Assembly (NCBI GenBank): GCA_947632325.1
Contig: CANROU010000001.1
Span: 7,997-71,996, forward strand
Source of the DNA: an uncultured Bacilli bacterium
Lineage (GTDB): Bacteria; Bacillota_I; Bacilli_A; RF39; UBA660
DNA length: 64,000 nucleotides
Direction of reading: 5' to 3'
In this document: in pieces, positions 21,116 to 50,468 of the stretch
Position numbering within the stretch: the stretch's first letter is position 1
How the letters are laid out: each line of letters starts with the position of its first letter
Notes under the pieces: generated by a model
Databases searched by the model: none
Told to the model about the DNA's origin: nothing
Seen by the model: the letters and a program-made list of their open reading frames with translations, nothing else
Position numbers and translations under genes: made by a program

Positions 21116-21983
21116 CTGTTACTACAAAGAAAGCATCACTATCTATCTCATGAATTCCTTCTTTTAGTCTGTAATAATCTTTAGTTGGTATAACGCACAT
21201 TAATACTGTCTGTTTTTCTTTAGTGTATCCTCCCTTAGCATTAAAAATCGTTACGCCATGATTTAGATATTTTAAGATAAACTCTTTAACATCAGCTTCT
21301 TTATCCGTAATAATATAAAAAGCCTTACTATCAGAAATACCTAAAACAACTCTATCAGTCATTATGGTAATAATATATAAAACAATTAGAGCATACATCA
21401 ATTTAGTTGGTCCAAAAATAAAAACTCCCCCTAATACTATAAGACCATCACTCATTAACATACTTTTTCCAAGTGATACTTTCGCATATTTGGAAATAAT
21501 TTGATTAATAATATCTGTTCCGCCTGTTGTAAAACCGGCTTTAAAGATAAGACCTGTTCCAAAGCCTTGGATAACTCCTCCAAAAATTGCCGCTAATAAT
21601 AACTGGGTATTATCTATATCTAAAAAAACATCAATGTTAGCTGTTAATTTTACAAATAAGGGAAATAACAATGATCCTAATACTGATCCTAACGTTTTGT
21701 CTTTCCCAAGTAATATTAAACTGACTAAAAGTAATATTAGGGACGCCACTAAGATAAACAAAGAGGGATCAATGCCAAATAAACGTTTAAAAATAAGGGA
21801 TAAACCACTAACACCCCCCGCTACTAAAGAATTGGGTTCTAAAAATAAGTTAAAGGCTACAGCAACCAAAAAAACACCGATGACAAACTGAATGTATCTT
21901 TTGATTCGTGATTTGTGATATATTTGCTGTATAATGCTATCGTTTAATTTTTTTCTAGAACGAAAAGGCCAAGTTATTGTCAC
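21087..21983 (-). CDS. YitT-family membrane protein (DUF161 + DUF2179), paralog
   Basis: Homologous to the 20204..21115 product. Confidence 0.55.
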   Translation of the reverse strand: MTITWPFRSRKKLNDSIIQQIYHKSRIKRYIQFVIGVFLVAVAFNLFLEPNSLVAGGVSGLSLIFKRLFGIDPSLFILVASLILLLVSLILLGKDKTLGSVLGSLLFPLFVKLTANIDVFLDIDNTQLLLAAIFGGVIQGFGTGLIFKAGFTTGGTDIINQIISKYAKVSLGKSMLMSDGLIVLGGVFIFGPTKLMYALIVLYIITIMTDRVVLGISDSKAFYIITDKEADVKEFILKYLNHGVTIFNAKGGYTKEKQTVLMCVIPTKDYYRLKEGIHEIDSDAFFVVTDAYEVFGGE

Positions 21984-23081
21984 GATAATTCCTCCTTTAA
22001 ATATGCTTCAATAAATATATCTAGATTACCATCTAAAACCTTATCAACATTACTAGTTTCTACTCCAGTTCTATGATCTTTTACCATAGAGTAAGGGTGC
22101 ATAACATAACTTCTAATTTGTGAACCAAATTCAATATTTTTATGTTCACCTTTTATCTTTTGCATTTGTTCTTGTTGTTTTTCAATTTCTAATAATTGTA
22201 ATTTGCTTTTTAATATTTGAAGAGCTTTTTCTCTATTTTGAATTTGGCTTCTCTCATTTTGACATGTTACTACTATTTTTGTAGGTAAATGAGTAATTCT
22301 AACAGCACTATCAGTCGTATTAACATGTTGCCCCCCTGCTCCTGAAGATCTATAAACATCTATTTTTAAATCAGTATCTTTTATTTCTACATCTATAGTT
22401 TGATCAAATTGTGGTGTAACTTCTACTGAGGCAAAAGAAGTATGACGGCGATTATTAGAATCAAATGGTGATAATCTAACTAATCGATGAACCCCTTTTT
22501 CACCTTTTAAATATCCATAACTATTTTTTCCCTTGATCAATATTGAAGCACTTTTAATTCCGGCCTCTTCGCCTTCTAAATAATCAAGTACTTCTACCTT
22601 ATAATGTTTACTTTCACAATATCTAAGATACATGCGATATAACATCTCAGCCCAATCACAAGCTTCTGTTCCACCAGCTCCACTATGAACTTCTAATATA
22701 CAATTATTTTTATCATATTTTCCATTCAATAAAAGGATTAAGCGTAAGTTATCTAATTCTTTTTTAATAGTAGATACATCCTTTTCTACTAAAGAATACA
22801 TTTCTTTATCATATTCAACGGTTAATAATTCGCATAAATCTATATTACTATTTATCTTATCTTTCAATTCAGTTATACTGTTTACCACACTCTTTAAATC
22901 ATTGATTTCTTTTATTGTGGTCTCAACTTCATCTTTTTTATTCCAAAATGACGGATTATTTATTTTATCATCTAACTTTGCAATTTGGTTTTTCTTGTTA
23001 TCGATGTCAAAGAGACCTCCATAAATCTTCTATTTCTTTTTTACTGTTTAATAATACTTTTTTTATTTCACCTTGATCCAT
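21980..23081 (-). CDS. prfB: peptide chain release factor 2, with programmed +1 ribosomal frameshift
   Basis: A 24-codon leader from the ATG at 23081 ends at ...GGAGG TCT CTT TGA C (TGA at 23009-23007). The +1 frame continues as DIDNKKN... into the 302-aa ORF, which carries SPFDSNNRRHTSFASVEV and GGQ. Confidence 0.9.
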
Positions 23082-24408: not shown

Positions 24409-24497
24409 TTTAAATCCTATCTCCTATTTTCATATTATAACAATTATACACCACGATTAACTATTTAAGCAAATATAATTATTTCATGTTAATTAAA

Positions 24498-26032
24498 ATA
24501 GGGATATCCCGAAATAAAATACCCCATATATATCCTTGTGTTACAATAATTTTTGTCCAGAAAATTATGAATGGAGGTATATATATGGGTCGTAATTATT
24601 CTAACAAAAATTTATCTATTTTGGAAATAGGAAATATTGAATTTTATTTAAATGAAGGGATATCTCCTGCTGATATAGCTAGGTTATTAAATAAAGATCC
24701 TTCTGGAATTAGAAAAGAAATTAAAAAATATTCTTCTTATTTTGGAAATCAAAGAAAATGTTCTAATTGTTTAAACAAGGATAATTGTCATCAAAAATAT
24801 CTTTGTGAAGATATTAGAGATAAGGTTAAATGTTCTCAATGTAAGTATTGTTCTTATGCTGTTAAAGTTTGTCCCAATTATAAAGTAATTATTGATTGTG
24901 AATTATTAAAAAAGAACCATCATGTTTGTAATGGGTGTCATTTATATTTGAAATGTAAAAAAGTTAAAATTAAATATCACGCTGAAACTGCTATTAAAAT
25001 GCACAATGCTGTTCAAAGAGTTTCTCGTATTGGTACTAAGGTTGATACTTTCCCAGAAGAATTTAAATCTTATGTATCTAGACTTATCAAAAATGGTATC
25101 TCTCCTCAAGTCATTATGAATACTCTTCCAAATAAATTTTTGATGTTCAAAGTTTCTACTCCTACTGTTTATTCTTGAATTGATAAAGGCTTATTAGACT
25201 GTTGTAATTTAGATTTAAGAAACAAAGTTTCTAAAATTAGATATGGTACCAATACCGAAAAAAGAAATACAGTTAGAAATCATCAATTAAATGGCAGAAG
25301 TATTGAAGACCTATCAGAGGAAGAAAGGATCAATAGACCTCTTGGTGTTGTTGAATTAGATACTGTTGAAGGCATTAAAGGTGGTGAACTTCTTTTTACT
25401 ATTATGTTCCCTTGTTTCTCTTTAATGCTTGGTTTTAAAATAAAAAGAAAAACTCAGGAAGAAATTGGCAATATATTAGATATGTTAGAGGATAAATTAG
25501 ATTCTTATTTTTATGTTCTTTTTAGAAAAGGAATTCCTGATAATGGTTGGGAATTTCTTGACTTTGATTTATTAGAAAAATCTATTCATAAGGATTTACA
25601 TAAAAGAATGGAAATTCATTATACACATTCTTATGCTTCGTATGAAAAGCCTCATATTGAAAATAATCATATCCTTTTAAGATGGTTAATCAAAAAAGGT
25701 TATGATATCACTCTTTTATCTGGTGATGATATTTTAGATATTATCAATCGCTTAAACAACTATCTTAGACCAAAAAAGAATTTTAAAACACCACTTCAAC
25801 TTTTAGAAGAAGAACTTGGAGATTATATTCTAGATTTATTAAATTTACATCATATTCCTATCGACCAATTAAATATGAAGGATATGATAATAAAAAATCA
25901 AGAGCGAACAAAGTGAGTTCATCTTGACTCTTGATTTTTTATTTCATATTTTTACCATTATTTTCCCAATAAAGTTTATCTTTATTGGTTATCAATTAGT
26001 AAAAACGGGATTTCTATTCGGGATTTCCTAAC
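24498..26032 (+). mobile_element. IS30-family insertion sequence (~1.5 kb) with imperfect terminal inverted repeats
   Basis: Left end ATAGGGATATCCCGAAATAAAATACCC (24498-24525). Right-end reverse complement TAGGAAATCCCGAATAGAAATCCCG (26003-26032). Encodes an IS30-type DDE transposase. Confidence 0.6.
24585..25916 (+). pseudogene. IS30-family DDE transposase, one in-frame TGA at 25179-25181 (otherwise a continuous 443-codon frame)
   Basis: N-terminal HTH plus a Cys-rich insert. DDE region ELDTVEG...IPDNGWEF...HSYASYEKPHIENNHILLRWLIKKG matches the IS30 signature. ORFs 24486..25178 and 25404..25916 are in the same frame and separated only by this TGA. Confidence 0.7.
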
Positions 26033-26972
26033 TTAAATTCACCAATTCTAAATATTTCTTTAACATTTCTATCTCTAATCCATTTATCAATTTAACAAAA
26101 TCAGTATAATCTTTCATTGTAAGGGCTTTATCTAAGGCTTCATAATATTGTAGTCTATCTTCTTTCTTTATAATTACTGGATTAAATCCATGTTTCATTA
26201 AATCTAAATTCATAATTAATCTTGATGTTCTTCCATTTCCATCAACAAAAGGATGAATTTTAACAAGTTCTCCATGCAATAACGTAGCTTGAATTATTGG
26301 ATGATATTTATTCCAAGTTTTATAATTTAAAATTAATTTTTCCATTAACTCAGGAACTTTTACAAAGTCTGGTGGAATATGAGTTGCTCCTTTTATAGTT
26401 ACATTTTCACTTCTATATCTTCCAGCATTTTCATCATCAATTTCCTTTAATATAAGAGTGTGTATATTTTTAATGTTCCACTCAGTAATTGGGTCATCAT
26501 CCTTTACTAAATCATTTAAAAACAAAATTGCGTGTTCGTGATTTATAGCTTCTAAGTGTTCCTTGATTGATTTGCCTCCAACAGTAATTTCTTCTAAAAC
26601 TACTTGGGTTTCTCTAAGGGTCAGAGTATTTCCTTCTATACCATTACTATTATAAGTCCATTCTAAATTAATTTTTTCTTGTAAAGTTCTAAGTGTATCT
26701 TTTGGTATAGGTCTTTTATTATCAAGTTCTTTTTTTAAATTGTCTACTTCATCAAAAAAATTATTTGGTAAATTAATAATAAAGTCATTATTATCAGGTT
26801 TTATAATCCTTTTATCAACTGGTTTTAGTGCATCAATTGGGATATTCCAACTATTTCCATTTTTGACTGCTCCTTCTATTCTTCCCTCTTTTAATAATTT
26901 TCTTATTCTTCTTTCACTAATATTCCATTTTAGAACAGCATCTTTTGTAGTCATAAATTCCATAGATATCAC
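26028..26972 (-). CDS. Fic-family protein (AMPylation/adenylyltransferase fold) with N-terminal HTH
   Basis: Fic motif HPFVDGNGRTSRL. The stop codon lies inside the IS30 right terminal repeat. Confidence 0.8.
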   Translation of the reverse strand: MISMEFMTTKDAVLKWNISERRIRKLLKEGRIEGAVKNGNSWNIPIDALKPVDKRIIKPDNNDFIINLPNNFFDEVDNLKKELDNKRPIPKDTLRTLQEKINLEWTYNSNGIEGNTLTLRETQVVLEEITVGGKSIKEHLEAINHEHAILFLNDLVKDDDPITEWNIKNIHTLILKEIDDENAGRYRSENVTIKGATHIPPDFVKVPELMEKLILNYKTWNKYHPIIQATLLHGELVKIHPFVDGNGRTSRLIMNLDLMKHGFNPVIIKKEDRLQYYEALDKALTMKDYTDFVKLINGLEIEMLKKYLELVNLS

Positions 26973-40514: not shown

Positions 40515-40597
40515 TTTATCTCTCCTTCCGCCATGACATTTCTGCCATAGTTATGCAATGTGTTAATAGTATAGCAAGAAAAAGTATTTTTTTCAAG

Positions 40598-45734: not shown

Positions 45735-46571
45735 TTATACTAATTTATGAAAAACAAAAATCATTCTATTTCGACCTTGTAAATCTTTTTTAGTTATTAT
45801 ATTAACATCATCTAAATTATCGTATATCAATTTAATAACATCATCTTTTTGATCACAACCTATTTCAAAAGCTATTAAATACTTTTCATTAACGTGCTTA
45901 GGAACATCTTTTAATATTTTACGATAATAATCCAATCCATCAATGCCTCCATATAAAGCTAGCTTTGGCTCATTGTTTTTAACAATATCTTCAATTGGCT
46001 CATTTTCTTTAATATATGGTGGATTGCTGATAATTATATCATAGGTTTCTCTTACTTCCTGTAACATATCACTTTTAATAATATTAACATCAACATCATT
46101 TTCTAAAGCATTAGTTTGAGCAACATCTAAACACTTTGAATCAATATCAACCAATGTAACATCAATATTAGGACACTTTTTTTTAATTGTTATTCCTATT
46201 ACTCCACTACCACAACCAAGATCGATAAGCTTTATGTTCTTTTTATCATAATATTTATTAATATAATGTAAAGTGTTTTCAACCAATTCTTCTGTCTCAA
46301 ATCGTGGTATTAAAACATTTTTAGTAACTTTAAACGTATAACCATAAAAATTAACATGCCCTAAAACATATTGAATGGGCTGCCCTGACAATAAAGCGTC
46401 AATCATTTTTTGATAGATTTGACAGGTTTGTATCTGTATATCTTCATCTAAGTGATTTAATAATTCTAATGGATTATAACCCAAGAGATCGCTTAGTAAC
46501 ATTCTTGATTGCGTTTTATGAATATACTTAGCCCCAAGGCTTAATAAATCTTCTACTTTCATATTATTCAC
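45735..46571 (-). CDS. prmC: release factor glutamine N5-methyltransferase PrmC/HemK
   Basis: SAM-binding LDLGCGSG and the NPPY motif. Lies immediately downstream of prfA. Confidence 0.85.
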   Translation of the reverse strand: MNNMKVEDLLSLGAKYIHKTQSRMLLSDLLGYNPLELLNHLDEDIQIQTCQIYQKMIDALLSGQPIQYVLGHVNFYGYTFKVTKNVLIPRFETEELVENTLHYINKYYDKKNIKLIDLGCGSGVIGITIKKKCPNIDVTLVDIDSKCLDVAQTNALENDVDVNIIKSDMLQEVRETYDIIISNPPYIKENEPIEDIVKNNEPKLALYGGIDGLDYYRKILKDVPKHVNEKYLIAFEIGCDQKDDVIKLIYDNLDDVNIITKKDLQGRNRMIFVFHKLV

Positions 46572-47619
46572 TCATCATTTTTTGCTTTTGATCTTCTATG
46601 GTTAAGGCATTTATAATTTCATCTAAATCTCCGTTCATTACTCGATCTAGATTTTTGGTTGTAAATCCAATACGGTGATCTGTAACTCGATTTTGGGGAT
46701 AATTATAAGTTCGAATTTTTTCAGCTCTATCACCAGTACCTATTTTACTACGACGCATTTGTCCTTCTTTCTGTTCAAGTTCCTGTTGTTTTTGTTCATA
46801 AAGACGCGCCTTTAAAACTTTCATAGCTTGTTCCTTGTTTTGAATTTGGCTTCTTTCATTTTGACATGTTACTACTGTATTAGTGGGTATATGAGTTATT
46901 CTTACTGCTGAATCTGTGGTATTTACACCTTGGCCACCGCAACCACTACTACGATAAATATCTATACGTAAATCAGTAGGTTTAATTTCAATATCAACTT
47001 CTTCGGCTTCAGGCATTACCAATACTGTAGCTGTAGATGTTTGTAAGCGTCCATTGGCTTCAGTAGTAGGAACCCGCTGAACTCGGTGAGCACCGCTTTC
47101 ATATTTAAAAGTACTATAAGCATTATTGCCTTTAATCATAAATTCTATTTGACTAAAGCCACCAGCTTCTCCTTCGATAGCATTATAAACGTTTATTTTA
47201 TAACCTTTTTTTTCAGCATATCTAGAATACATTCTAAATAAATCACCGGCAAAAATATTAGCTTCGTCACCTCCTGCAGCTCCCCTTATTTCAACTATAA
47301 CGTTTTTATCGTCATTAGGATCCTTAGGAATTAATAGCTGTTCTAGTTCTTTTTCTAAAGTTGCTTTTTTATTTTCTAAAGAGGCAATTTCATCTTTAGC
47401 CATTTCAGCTAGATCTTTATCATTTAATAATTCTTTAGTATCTTCTAACTGCTGTAGACAATCTTTATAATTTTGATAGACTTTAACAGCATCTTCTAAA
47501 TCATTCATTTCTTTAGATAATTGTCTGGTTTTATTAAGGTCTTTTAAAATATCTTCTTTAGTCAATTCTTGTTGTATTTCTTGATATCTTTTTTCCATGA
47601 TCTCTAATCTTTCTTTCAT
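46564..47619 (-). CDS. prfA: peptide chain release factor 1
   Basis: GGQ motif plus the RF1-specific PxT-type region (PTTEANGRLQTST). Start at MKERL (ATG 47619). Confidence 0.9.
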   Translation of the reverse strand: MKERLEIMEKRYQEIQQELTKEDILKDLNKTRQLSKEMNDLEDAVKVYQNYKDCLQQLEDTKELLNDKDLAEMAKDEIASLENKKATLEKELEQLLIPKDPNDDKNVIVEIRGAAGGDEANIFAGDLFRMYSRYAEKKGYKINVYNAIEGEAGGFSQIEFMIKGNNAYSTFKYESGAHRVQRVPTTEANGRLQTSTATVLVMPEAEEVDIEIKPTDLRIDIYRSSGCGGQGVNTTDSAVRITHIPTNTVVTCQNERSQIQNKEQAMKVLKARLYEQKQQELEQKEGQMRRSKIGTGDRAEKIRTYNYPQNRVTDHRIGFTTKNLDRVMNGDLDEIINALTIEDQKQKMMSE

Positions 47620-47689
47620 AGAACCATCCTTTCTCTTCTTAAATCTATTATAGCATACACTTATGTACAATATTATCTAAAAACTAGAA

Positions 47690-48239: not shown

Positions 48240-49979
48240 TTACATTTTTTCTGGAACAGATATTCCTAATACATCAAGAAGCAGGCTACATACTTGATAA
48301 GTAATTCTTGTTAAAGTTATCCATGTTTCTTTAAGTAATTCATCCTGTTCGCTTAAAACGTGATTTTCAACATAAAATTTATTGTAATTACTAGATAATT
48401 TATATATATATTCGGCAATTCCATTTAATGATTTTTCTTGATAACTATTAGTTAAAACATTAGGCAAACTTAAAAGTAAGACAGCTAATTTTCGATCTGT
48501 ATTATTTTTAAATTTATGAATAAGAGTTTTATTATTACTATTTACTTTGTTTAATAAAGATTTCATCCTGATAACAGAATATAAAACATATGGTCCAGTT
48601 TTGCCTTCAAGATCAGCAAATTTTGTAACATCAAAAATATAATCTTTATTACGGAAAGATAAAAAATCAGCATATTTAATAGTCGCTATAGTTATAATTT
48701 CCGCTATTTTTTCTTGTTCTTCTTGAGTTATTGATGGATTCATTTTTTGATTGATTTCTTTTTTAACTGTTTCTATTAAATCTATTAAAGACATGACTGA
48801 TCCATCTCTTGTTTTAAATGGTTTGCCATCTTTTCCATTCATTGTACCAAATCCAAAATAGTTTAAAACTATATCACTATTAGCTAAACCACTTTTTTTA
48901 GCGGCTCTAAATACTTGTTTAAAATACAATTCCTGACGATTATCTGCAAGATACCAAAGTTCATTTGGTTTAAATCTTTCAATTCTAGATAACAATGTTG
49001 CTAACTCTCTAGTTTGATAAACAGTACCACCATTTTCTTTTACAATAACTAAAGGCGGCATAGGTTCAGTGTCGCTATCTTCTTTAACATCAATAACCAT
49101 AGCTCCAGCACTTTTATATAATAGTTTTTGATCATTCAATATTTTAAGTACTTTATCAATATATGGATAAGCATCCATTTCACCTTCCCAAAGATCAAAA
49201 TCAACATTTATTCTTTTATAAATATTTTTAATATCTTTAATCGATAATTCCTTGATAGCTTTCCATAAAGCCAAATAACCTGGATGCCCTTGTTCCAATT
49301 GCACTGTAATATCTCTTACCTCATTTAAAACGGCTTCATCCTCTTTAGCTCTAAGGGATCCTGTTGGATATATTTCTTTTAAGTCTTCAACATTAATCGG
49401 TAACACATCATAGCTATCATGGGGCTTTCCATCAAAATAATTTAACTGTGGATAGCGTCTTTTTATTTCATAAATAACAATTCCTGATTGTCTACCAATA
49501 TCACCAAAATGAACATCAGCAATAACTTCATTTCCTAATAATCGAGCCAAACGTTTTAGAGCTTCCCCTATATTAGCACTTCTTAAATGTCCAACATGTA
49601 ACGCTTTAGCAATATTAGCTCCTCCATAGTCTATAAATATTTTTTTACCTTCTGTCATATCTATATTATTCTTAATGTCTTCTTGCATCATATTTAAAGC
49701 TTGATTTAAAAAAGTTGTTTTAAACGTTACATTTAAAAAACCTGGTCCGGCGATAGTAATGTTATCAAAAAAGGAACTATCCTGTAAAACTGCTTTTATT
49801 TTTTCGGCAATAGAAAGAGGATTTTCATGATATTTTTTAGCTAATAACATCGGCTCTGTTATTTGGTATTCTCCTAAATCTTGACGATTAGATTCTTGAA
49901 AATGAACATCATCAATTTCATATCCTAGTTTATTAATGGCAGTAGTTAATTCCTTTTTTAATTGGTTAATAATACTCAT
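48240..49979 (-). CDS. argS: arginine--tRNA ligase
   Basis: HIGH motif region (ALHVGHLRS) and class I ArgRS architecture, 579 aa. Confidence 0.9.
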   Translation of the reverse strand: MSIINQLKKELTTAINKLGYEIDDVHFQESNRQDLGEYQITEPMLLAKKYHENPLSIAEKIKAVLQDSSFFDNITIAGPGFLNVTFKTTFLNQALNMMQEDIKNNIDMTEGKKIFIDYGGANIAKALHVGHLRSANIGEALKRLARLLGNEVIADVHFGDIGRQSGIVIYEIKRRYPQLNYFDGKPHDSYDVLPINVEDLKEIYPTGSLRAKEDEAVLNEVRDITVQLEQGHPGYLALWKAIKELSIKDIKNIYKRINVDFDLWEGEMDAYPYIDKVLKILNDQKLLYKSAGAMVIDVKEDSDTEPMPPLVIVKENGGTVYQTRELATLLSRIERFKPNELWYLADNRQELYFKQVFRAAKKSGLANSDIVLNYFGFGTMNGKDGKPFKTRDGSVMSLIDLIETVKKEINQKMNPSITQEEQEKIAEIITIATIKYADFLSFRNKDYIFDVTKFADLEGKTGPYVLYSVIRMKSLLNKVNSNNKTLIHKFKNNTDRKLAVLLLSLPNVLTNSYQEKSLNGIAEYIYKLSSNYNKFYVENHVLSEQDELLKETWITLTRITYQVCSLLLDVLGISVPEKM

Positions 49980-50003: not shown

Positions 50004-50468
50004 TTATTTATTATTTTTTATTCTTTTTTGATAAGAAAAAATTATAATCCTTGTAAAATTATCACCTTTTATTAGATATTTTATGGAAATATTATTAGTC
50101 TTTTTTTCAAGTGATTGCGTAATAAACGGAACATCACACGATACGTTATTTTCCTTAATTAAAAGAGTAGCTTGTGTTTCTTTGTTGAGCATATATGGGA
50201 AAATTAATTTTAAATTTTTATTATCTTTAACAAATATATTGTTTACTAGATCGAAGGAATATTCATTTATACCATTTATATCTTTGTTTTTCCAACAAAT
50301 TATTTCCTCACTTTTAGTGCCAGATCCTGAAATATCGTATTCTATTCCATCTTCAATTATTTTCCCAATTACTGTAATATTTAACATGCATTTCTCCTTA
50401 AAATTTCTACTTTGCATTATAACACAACTTAATACAATTGAATACATATTTTCATCATTTTTTTTCAT
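50004..50468 (-). CDS. hypothetical protein (possibly a DUF1934/YwiB-like beta-barrel cotranscribed with argS)
   Basis: 154 aa, 24 bp upstream of argS on the same strand. Confidence 0.35.
   Translation of the reverse strand: MKKNDENMYSIVLSCVIMQSRNFKEKCMLNITVIGKIIEDGIEYDISGSGTKSEEIICWKNKDINGINEYSFDLVNNIFVKDNKNLKLIFPYMLNKETQATLLIKENNVSCDVPFITQSLEKKTNNISIKYLIKGDNFTRIIIFSYQKRIKNNK

What the first reader, a model, noticed from the sequence alone, without database searches (positions are those of the whole stretch)
24585..25916. IS30-family transposase whose only interruption is one in-frame TGA, plus an unusual Cys-rich N-terminal insert
The two track ORFs (24486..25178 and 25404..25916) are in the same frame, and the ~75 intervening codons after the TGA at 25179-25181 are open. 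The host clearly reads TGA as stop: prfB is present with a UGA-dependent frameshift site, and long housekeeping ORFs are intact. So this is either a very recent TGG>TGA nonsense mutation or a Trp codon inherited from a genetic-code-4 donor (Mollicutes, the sister group of Erysipelotrichia). The N-terminal region carries ~16 Cys in CxxC-type pairs (CSNCLNKDNC...CSQCKYCS...CNGCHLYLKC), not typical of IS30 transposases, which usually start with plain HTH domains.
Basis: partly seen in the sequence, partly recalled or inferred. Interest (0 to 1): 0.5.

Follow-up and report, generated by a model that had tools for sequence, protein, structure and literature searches.

The report
Nonsense-inactivated IS30-family insertion sequence
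This is a single, fixed copy of an IS30-type mobile element whose transposase gene was knocked out by an ordinary TGG-to-TGA mutation at a conserved tryptophan codon. Its cysteine-rich segment is a normal but uncharacterised feature of a whole subfamily of such transposases from anaerobic gut bacteria.

Summary
Window 24585..25916 is one 443-codon frame with a single in-frame TGA, at 25176-25178 rather than 25179-25181.

The gene is an IS30-family transposase inside a 1557-bp IS (24487-26043) with 37-nt terminal inverted repeats.

Trp is invariant at the TGA position in 120/120 close homologs. All 30 related genome loci and 3 metagenome copies with Trp at this position spell it TGG, and none has an in-frame TGA. 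The other two Trp codons of this copy are also TGG.

The host and the relatives' hosts read TGA as stop. prfB carries a CTT TGA C frameshift site, and TGA ends 9 of 55 long ORFs (about 7 of them plausible host genes).

So the lesion is a G>A nonsense mutation. The code-4-donor idea is not supported. dN/dS to the nearest relatives is 0.11-0.12, so inactivation is recent relative to that divergence. The IS is 100% identical, TGA included, in two other assemblies.

The Cys-rich region (12 Cys, residues 59-124) lies between two HTH units. It is invariant in the subfamily and recognisable in 28-40%-identical IS30 relatives from Clostridia, Holdemania and others.

It has no Pfam, PDB-sequence or fold match. 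Whether it binds zinc or iron-sulfur is unresolved.

The parts
24487..26043 (+). Complete insertion sequence (1557 bp), IS30 family
   Evidence: Homology with more than 30 related IS copies in other genomes starts and stops at these positions. There is no second copy in the window.
24487..24523 (+). Left terminal inverted repeat (TGTTAATTAAAATAGGGATATCCCG...). It is a single hybrid copy, where relatives carry two tandem IR-like repeats about 33 bp apart.
   Evidence: Inverted-repeat pair I1 is 36 nt at 72% complementarity. Alignment of left ends shows the 33-bp shortfall in the window copy.
26007..26043 (+). Right terminal inverted repeat (two CGGGATTTC motifs, then CTAACTTAAATTCACC)
   Evidence: The motif GGAWATCCCGAA occurs only at the two IS ends in the 64 kb.
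24585..25916 (+). Transposase reading frame (443 codons plus stop), interrupted once. It is a pseudogene unless UGA is read through.
   Evidence: Translation. NCBIfam IS30 transposase scores 91 bits against a cut-off of 80. The closest relatives are 74-92% identical to 437-453-aa intact homologs.
25176..25178 (+). In-frame TGA replacing the conserved Trp198 codon (TGG in the 33 related DNA copies that have Trp here)
   Evidence: The same allele is present in two other assemblies.
24600..24728 (+). First helix-turn-helix unit (residues 6-48)
24759..24956 (+). Cys-rich module (residues 59-124): C59-x2-C62-x5-C68-x5-C74, C83-x2-C86-x2-C89-x6-C96-P, C105-x9-C115-x2-C118-x5-C124
   Evidence: All 12 Cys are invariant in 120/120 close homologs. 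Eight are invariant or nearly so (at least 34 of 36 sequences) in 28-40%-identical relatives. There is no Pfam, PDB-sequence or fold match.
25056..25205 (+). Second HTH-like helical unit (residues about 158-207). The TGA falls in its last helix.
   Evidence: AF2 predicts helices 158-169, 174-179 and 192-196. There is a weak Pfam HTH_17 hit at residues 187-207, E = 0.0025, below the cut-off.
25359..25661 (+). DDE catalytic core: D259 (25359-25361), D319 (25539-25541), E359 (25659-25661), all intact
   Evidence: These residues are invariant in 36/36 diverse relatives and lie within the NCBIfam IS30 match 128-397.
25889..25943 (+). Perfect 16-bp hairpin spanning the transposase stop codon, followed by T-rich sequence (terminator-like)
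   Evidence: Inverted repeat I15 is 16 nt at 100% complementarity.
23006..23020 (-). prfB programmed +1 frameshift site GGAGG TCT CTT TGA C. It is evidence that the host reads UGA as stop through RF2.
   Evidence: Sequence. The downstream ORF 21980..22888 carries the PCRF and RF-1 domains.
26028..26972 (-). Neighbouring fic gene. Its last four codons (VNLS) and its stop lie inside the IS right end.
   Evidence: ORF list, Pfam Fic E = 1e-22, IS boundary.

Best explanation
An IS30-family insertion sequence sits between a small unknown gene and the 3' end of a fic gene, in a low-GC, standard-code (table 11) gut Bacilli-type bacterium. Its transposase gene suffered one G>A transition that turned the conserved Trp198 codon TGG into TGA.

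RF2 terminates translation there. The product is a 197-residue fragment (HTH1, Cys-rich module, most of HTH2) without the DDE catalytic domain. The downstream ATG-initiated ORF (from M274) lacks D259 and cannot be catalytic. The copy is therefore immobile, apart from any rare near-cognate read-through, and it is inherited vertically.

Shown here: family membership, the Trp/TGG ancestry of the codon, the host code, recurrence of the allele in other assemblies, and purifying selection on almost all of the divergence from relatives.

Inferred: loss of transposition, and that the copy is the only one in its genome.

The Cys-rich module is an ancestral, conserved part of this transposase subfamily. 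It is most likely a metal-binding unit built of Cys4 sites that helps the N-terminal DNA-binding region. The metal is unknown.
For: - IS30 HMM scores above the curated cut-off, HTH_38 is above its cut-off, and the DDE residues are intact and invariant in relatives.
- Terminal IRs and IS limits are defined by more than 30 related copies.
- W is found at the TGA position in 120/120 homologs.
- The codon is TGG in all 30 related genome loci that have Trp there, and in 3 metagenome copies.
- In the 24 relatives whose full CDS was analysed there are no internal stops, and both Trp codons are TGG.
- Host code 11 is shown by the prfB CTT TGA C site, 9 TGA stops among 55 long ORFs, and no other real in-frame TGA.
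- dN/dS is 0.11-0.12 at dS about 0.5 to the nearest relatives, against a family median of 0.15.
- Only 3 of 209 family-conserved columns deviate in this copy, against a family mean of 1.25.
- The IS is 1557/1557 identical, TGA included, in ERZ27249080 and ERZ27249559. A fourth assembly ends 68 nt inside the same insertion.
- The closest intact protein among 15 billion is only 91.9% identical.
- IS GC content (26.7%) and GC3 (15%) match the host's.
Against: - The whole genome was not available, so an intact sibling copy that failed to assemble cannot be excluded.
- The three or four assemblies have consecutive ENA accessions and may be one cohort or strain, so 'fixed in the species' is weakly sampled.
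- The copy lacks the perfect 14-bp target duplication that relatives have, and it lacks one 33-bp left-end repeat. This hints at a longer residence or rearrangement than the clean ORF suggests.
- Low-level UGA read-through by tRNA-Trp would restore the wild-type protein and was not testable.
Confidence: 0.85

Rival explanations
1. The TGA is a Trp codon inherited from a genetic-code-4 donor (Mycoplasmatales or similar) by horizontal transfer, and is now read as stop in a code-11 host.
For: - The TGA sits exactly at an invariant Trp position.
- The IS family occurs in wall-less or low-GC 'Tenericutes/Anaeroplasmataceae'-labelled MAGs.
- IS30-type elements do exist in mycoplasmas (PMC3317919).
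Against: - None of 24 fully analysed relatives has any in-frame TGA, and both of their Trp codons are TGG.
- The homologous codon is TGG in 30 genome loci and 3 metagenome copies.
- This copy's other two Trp codons are TGG.
- Flanking genes of the relatives show about 16 mid-ORF TGA against about 190 TGG, which means standard code.
- No named Mycoplasma or Spiroplasma host appears among the 79 loci.
- Within Bacillota, the UGA=Trp reassignment is documented only for the order Mycoplasmatales in a 42,109-genome survey (PMC13092985).
Confidence: 0.02
2. The copy is attenuated rather than dead. Near-cognate decoding of UGA by tRNA-Trp(CCA) occasionally inserts Trp and restores the exact wild-type transposase at low level. 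The abundant 197-aa HTH/Cys fragment acts as a DNA-binding inhibitor of transposition.
For: - TGG>TGA is the one nonsense change whose natural read-through product is wild type (inference from codon-anticodon geometry).
- Everything else needed for activity is intact: DDE residues, both IRs, RBS and terminator.
- The ORF shows no further decay.
Against: - There is no sign of mobility. The site and sequence are the same in all assemblies, there is no second copy in 64 kb, and no close intact or TGA-bearing sibling exists in the protein collection.
- No relative uses such a stop, so it is not a conserved regulatory device.
- RF2 is present.
Confidence: 0.1
3. The TGA is a sequencing or assembly error in a low-coverage metagenome assembly.
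For: The independent contigs have only about 3.4-3.8x coverage, by their names.
Against: The same base is present in the window's record and in two separately assembled samples, with the 1557-bp IS identical throughout.
Confidence: 0.02

Closest known systems
IS30 family insertion sequences (prototype IS30 of E. coli)
   Same: - A single DDE transposase ORF fills the element.
- It has an N-terminal HTH_38-type DNA-binding region and terminal inverted repeats.
- NCBIfam IS30 model NF033563 is matched above its cut-off.
- The expected mechanism is copy-out/paste-in through joined ends. This rests on established knowledge of IS30 and was not tested here.
   Different: - The transposase is longer (443 aa).
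- It carries a 12-Cys module between the two HTH units that Pfam does not model.
- Intact relatives make exact 14-bp target duplications, rather than the 2-3 bp typical of IS30. The latter figure is from my own knowledge of ISfinder descriptions and was not checked here.
- This copy is inactivated by a nonsense codon.
IS1630 of Mycoplasma fermentans (IS30-type)
   Same: It is an IS30-family element from a low-GC Bacillota relative with unusually long target duplications: 16-, 23-, 25- and 26-bp junction duplications and 27-bp IRs (PMC3317919).
   Different: - IS1630 lives in a UGA=Trp host, and its duplications vary in length.
- Here the duplication is a fixed 14 bp in relatives, and all hosts use the standard code.
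- Sequence relatedness to IS1630, and whether IS1630 has the Cys module, were not tested.
Ferredoxin-type [4Fe-4S] binding motif (PROSITE PS00198, CX2CX2CX3CP)
   Same: - The middle Cys group of distant family members is CX2CX2CX3C in 65 of 140 sequences, and 25 of 140 satisfy the strict PROSITE pattern.
- Pro is the commonest residue after the fourth Cys.
- Cys counts are bimodal (8-9 or 12-13), as expected for modular Cys4 sites.
- All identified hosts are anaerobes.
   Different: - The window's own subfamily has CX2CX2CX6CP (147 of 151) and never matches the PROSITE pattern.
- No Fer4 or SPASM Pfam model matches consistently.
- The PDB profile search gives only marginal C2H2 zinc-finger hits, E about 0.02.
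- There is no structural match. Zinc binding is equally possible.
Transposase pseudogenes with a single nonsense or frameshift lesion in bacterial genomes
   Same: One point lesion in an otherwise intact IS that is fixed at one chromosomal site.
   Different: Nothing essential. The lesion happens to be the TGG>TGA change that mimics code-4 usage.

Membership tests
IS30 family (transposase and element) | Transposase matches the curated IS30 family model above its cut-off | tested here: met
   NF033563 scores 91 bits against a cut-off of 80, over residues 128-397.
IS30 family (transposase and element) | DDE catalytic triad present | tested here: met
   D259, D319 and E359 are present in the window copy and invariant in 36/36 diverse relatives.
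IS30 family (transposase and element) | N-terminal helix-turn-helix DNA-binding region | tested here: met
IS30 family (transposase and element) | Terminal inverted repeats bounding a roughly 1-1.6 kb element with one ORF | tested here: met
   IRs at 24487-24523 and 26007-26043 bound a 1557-bp element. The ends are conserved across related copies.
IS30 family (transposase and element) | Short (2-3 bp) target-site duplication | tested here: not met
   Intact relatives show exact 14-bp duplications. The window copy has no intact duplication, only 14 of 18 matches in a register shifted by 2 nt. Long duplications are known in the family for IS1630 (PMC3317919), so this does not exclude membership.
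IS30 family (transposase and element) | Uninterrupted transposase ORF (active element) | tested here: not met
   There is a single in-frame TGA at 25176-25178.
Gene imported from a genetic-code-4 (UGA=Trp) organism | TGA used at Trp positions in the gene and in its closest relatives | tested here: not met
   There are no TGA codons in 24 relatives' coding sequences. The homologous codon is TGG in 33 DNA copies, and the other two Trp codons of this copy are TGG.
Gene imported from a genetic-code-4 (UGA=Trp) organism | Closest relatives reside in UGA=Trp hosts | tested here: not met
   Flanking long ORFs of 33 related loci contain about 190 mid-ORF TGG against about 16 TGA. No named Mycoplasma or Spiroplasma host appears among the 79 loci.
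Ferredoxin-type 4Fe-4S binding domain | PROSITE PS00198 pattern or a Pfam Fer4-type HMM match | tested here: inconclusive
   The pattern matches 0 of 151 in the window's subfamily and 25 of 140 distant relatives. Pfam gives only isolated single-member hits at E = 0.02-0.24.
Ferredoxin-type 4Fe-4S binding domain | Bound iron-sulfur cluster (spectroscopy or metal analysis) | not testable with these tools
   This needs purified protein.
Selenocysteine or programmed UGA recoding | Homologs carry Cys/Sec or a conserved UGA at the site | tested here: not met
   Homologs have Trp (TGG) at the site, or Tyr/Arg in distant ones. None has UGA.

The most novel reading that the evidence does not exclude
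The conserved 8-12-Cys module between the two HTH units of this IS30 subfamily binds iron-sulfur clusters rather than zinc. It contains a ferredoxin-like CX2CX2CX3CP group in many members. If so, DNA binding, and hence transposition, would respond to oxygen or redox state in the strictly anaerobic hosts to which the subfamily appears confined. That would be a transposase with an Fe-S sensor, which I have not seen described.
Probability: 0.2. Interest if true: 0.6.

Novelty: new member of a known kind. Interest (0 to 1): 0.2.

Why it matters
The main result is a clean negative. An in-frame TGA at a Trp codon in a relative of the Mollicutes looks like a trace of genetic-code-4 ancestry, but comparative data show an ordinary nonsense mutation in a resident IS. 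This guards against over-reading single TGA codons as evidence of code change or cross-code transfer.

A secondary point is that a large, well-conserved subfamily of IS30 transposases in anaerobic Firmicutes and gut Bacilli carries an unmodelled Cys-rich module and makes 14-bp target duplications. Both features are worth a domain model and a biochemical look, but they are not specific to this locus.

Tried and rejected
- **Code-4 origin.** Rejected (see rival explanations).
- **Sequencing error.** Rejected, because the IS is identical in two other assemblies.
- **Other copies or an intact twin.** None in the window. None above 92% identity in the 15-billion-protein collection. An exact 26-mer around the site with TGR found nothing in the metagenome contigs.
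- **Empty site in a related strain.** Exact-protein look-ups of the flanking 166-aa gene returned only contigs that carry the same insertion.
- **Nature of the Cys module.**
  - Pfam on 27 diverse domain segments gave no consistent family.
  - A PDB sequence profile gave only marginal C2H2-like hits driven by 'KPYVCNxC'.
  - phmmer of the domain against 1.84 billion representatives found 16 hits, most of them transposases of about 440 aa or shorter fragments of this subfamily.
  - The first AF2 run with 26 sequences gave pLDDT 45-60 in the module. A second run with 107 sequences gave 63-86.
  - The afdb50 library was unavailable.
- **Literature.** Searches for IS30 with 'cysteine-rich' or 'iron-sulfur cluster' found nothing relevant.
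- **In-frame pair 50004..50468 / 48240..49979.** This is just a small ORF upstream of a complete argS, not another interrupted gene.

Full report
**Observation.** Translating window 24486..25916 in one frame gives a continuous protein with a single stop. The two mechanical ORFs, 24486..25178 and 25404..25916, share the frame, and the 75 codons between them are open. The true start is ATG 24585, seven bases after GGAGG at 24573-24577. This start region is conserved in every related copy. The longer ORF from 24486 begins one base outside the element and merely reads through the inverted repeat. The read-through protein (443 aa) has 15 Cys, 12 of them in residues 59-124.

**What it is.** The protein matches NCBIfam's IS30 transposase model above the curated threshold (91 against 80 bits, residues 128-397). 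It also matches Pfam HTH_38 at residues 6-48 (29.9 against 27 bits). D259, D319 and E359 are present and invariant in 36 diverse relatives.

A 36-37-nt imperfect inverted repeat bounds the element. BLAST against more than 30 related copies from other genomes shows homology beginning at about 24487-24491 and ending at 26043. The IS is therefore 24487-26043, 1557 bp. A perfect 16-bp hairpin spans the stop codon. No other copy or fragment lies in the 64 kb. The element sits between an unknown 166-aa gene and a fic gene. The last four codons and the stop of that fic gene lie inside the right IR.

**The TGA.** A search of 5.8 billion protein clusters returned 222 homologs. The best 120 are 74-89% identical, 437-453 aa long and uninterrupted. 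All 120 have Trp at the TGA position.

A scan of 185,579 species genomes gave 79 loci. The results at the homologous codon are:
- Every close relative that has Trp there (30 loci) spells it TGG.
- Two more distant relatives have TAT, and still more distant ones have AGA or CGA.
- In 24 relatives whose coding sequence was analysed, there is no internal stop and both Trp codons are TGG.
- The window copy's other two Trp codons are also TGG.
- A degenerate-pattern scan of metagenome contigs found three more copies, all TGG.

The lesion is therefore a third-position G>A transition from TGG.

**Host code.** The window is 29% GC. Of 55 long ORFs, 38 end in TAA, 8 in TAG and 9 in TGA. Read-through extensions after the TGA stops are short, and these ORFs hold about 130 TGG codons. 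The prfB gene (21980..22888, PCRF and RF-1 domains) is preceded by the classical GGAGG TCT CTT TGA C frameshift site at 23020-23006. When stops are restricted to TAA and TAG, the only mid-ORF TGA in a real long ORF is the transposase one. The two others lie in an antisense artefact.

The same test on the flanks of 33 related loci gives about 190 TGG against about 16 TGA, so the relatives' hosts also use the standard code. Those hosts are gut MAGs labelled Bacilli, Tenericutes, Anaeroplasmataceae or Clostridia. None is a named Mycoplasma or Spiroplasma. UGA=Trp within Bacillota is documented for Mycoplasmatales (PMC13092985). The code-4-donor reading is therefore not supported.

**Age and state of the copy.**
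- Nei-Gojobori dN/dS between the window copy and its nearest DNA relatives (L001, L002) is 0.11-0.12 at dS about 0.47-0.50. This is within the family range (median 0.15).
- The copy departs from the family at only 3 of 209 columns that are at least 97% conserved (R217K, G232N, P394L). The family mean is 1.25, and 26 of 141 members have 3 or more.
- Almost all its divergence therefore accrued under purifying selection, and the knock-out is recent on that scale.
- Exact-protein look-ups found the same insertion in ENA assemblies ERZ27249080 and ERZ27249559. The flanks are 99.8-99.96% identical and the IS is 1557/1557 identical, TGA included.
- A fourth contig (ERZ27249578) ends 68 nt inside the same IS. 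This rules out an assembly error and shows vertical inheritance at one site.
- The closest intact protein anywhere in the collection is 91.9% identical. No active twin is known, although the rest of the host genome was not available.

**Other peculiarities of this copy.** Intact relatives are flanked by exact 14-bp target duplications, for example TACTGTTTTTCATT in L001, ATTTTTATTGATAA in L002 and CAAAATTATCTAAG in L006. The window copy has none in register, only 14 of 18 matches with a 2-nt shift. Relatives also carry two tandem IR-like repeats at the left end. The window copy has one hybrid repeat and is 33 bp shorter. These point to some post-insertion change, or to a history more complex than one clean transposition. 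Composition matches the host (GC 26.7%, GC3 15%).

**Consequence of the stop.** Termination at codon 198 yields HTH1, the Cys module and most of a second helical unit, without the catalytic domain. The downstream ATG ORF starts at M274, after D259, so it cannot supply a complete DDE site. The copy is therefore inferred to be immobile. One caveat is that near-cognate reading of UGA by tRNA-Trp would regenerate the wild-type protein, so a very low level of active enzyme cannot be excluded. No relative uses such a stop and no mobility is seen, so this is a minor rival.

**The Cys-rich region.** All 12 Cys of residues 59-124 are invariant in 120 close homologs. The module lies between the HTH_38 unit and the second helical unit.

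Relatives at 28-40% identity carry the same module. They come from Clostridia, Lachnospiraceae, Tissierellaceae, Desulfitobacterium, Holdemania, Brassicibacter, Zhenpiania, Treponema and others. Their consensus is NxC-x5-C-x5-C...C-x2-C-x2-C-x3-C...C-x9-PYVCNGC-x5-C. Eight Cys are invariant or nearly so, present in at least 34 of 36 sequences.

Across 140 distant members, Cys counts are bimodal at 8-9 and 12-13, which suggests modular Cys4 sites. Of these, 65 have CX2CX2CX3C and 25 satisfy PROSITE's ferredoxin pattern. The window's subfamily instead has CX2CX2CX6CP, in 147 of 151 members.

Tests for a known domain came up empty:
- Pfam does not model the region.
- Scans of 27 domain segments gave only isolated weak hits.
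- A PDB sequence profile gave marginal C2H2-like hits.
- phmmer of the window's domain against 1.84 billion representatives found 16 proteins, most of them transposases of about 440 aa or fragments of this subfamily.
- AF2 with a 107-sequence alignment gave mean pLDDT 78, and 63-86 in the module.

Literature searches found no description. The module is thus real, ancient within the subfamily and uncharacterised. Zinc or iron-sulfur binding cannot be decided here. All identified hosts are anaerobes, which is compatible with Fe-S but also with simple phylogenetic confinement.

**Comparison and verdict.** The element meets the defining features of the IS30 family: the HMM match, the DDE triad, the HTH and the IRs. 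The exception is the short target duplication. Long duplications are already known in the family for IS1630, at 16-26 bp (PMC3317919). It is a decayed member of a populous, database-annotated subfamily; 'IS30 family transposase' is the name that JGI and NCBI give several homologs.

The Cys-rich insert is a subfamily trait and not a local oddity. Interest is low for the TGA and modest for the Cys module.

Noticed in passing
L001, L002, L006, L008, L017, L018, L020, L031, L033 (IS ends): Intact relatives of this IS are flanked by exact 14-bp direct repeats of target DNA. This is far longer than the 2-3 bp usual for IS30-family elements, and it appears fixed in length.
   Followed up: partly
window 24487-24523 versus L001:2870-2940 and other relatives: Relatives have two tandem IR-like repeats at the left end: an outer GTTAATTAAAATA..GAAATCCCG and an inner AATTTAAATT.GGATATCCCGAAAT, about 33 bp apart. 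The window copy has a single hybrid repeat, as if the two had recombined.
   Followed up: partly
window 26028-26043: The fic gene on the minus strand takes its last four codons (VNLS) and its stop from the IS right inverted repeat. The insertion replaced the native C-terminal tail.
   Followed up: partly
window 13351-13906 and 16755-17318: A roughly 560-bp direct repeat (92% identity) lies at the 5' ends of two large ORFs with no Pfam match (10069..13761, 1230 aa; 14823..17165, 780 aa). The otherwise 99.8%-identical assembly ERZ27249080 lacks the roughly 2.9-kb segment between the repeats, so this is a strain-level indel by recombination between paralogs.
   Followed up: partly
window 40522-40550 (-): The only Rfam hit in the window is an L31-Firmicutes ribosomal protein leader (37.6 bits against 33.3). 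No tRNA genes occur in the 64 kb.
   Followed up: no
proteins P0178-P0296: More than 100 database proteins of 75-168 aa consist only of HTH_38 plus the Cys-rich module. They may be truncated or decayed copies, contig-end fragments, or stand-alone N-terminal products. This was not sorted out.
   Followed up: no
window 46564-47670 (-) and 21980-22888 (-): Two release-factor paralogs appear to be present. A 185-bp stretch of prfB matches 46811-46995 at 74% identity, inside ORF 46564..47670 (368 aa), which is probably prfA. That ORF was not scanned against any protein family library.
   Followed up: partly
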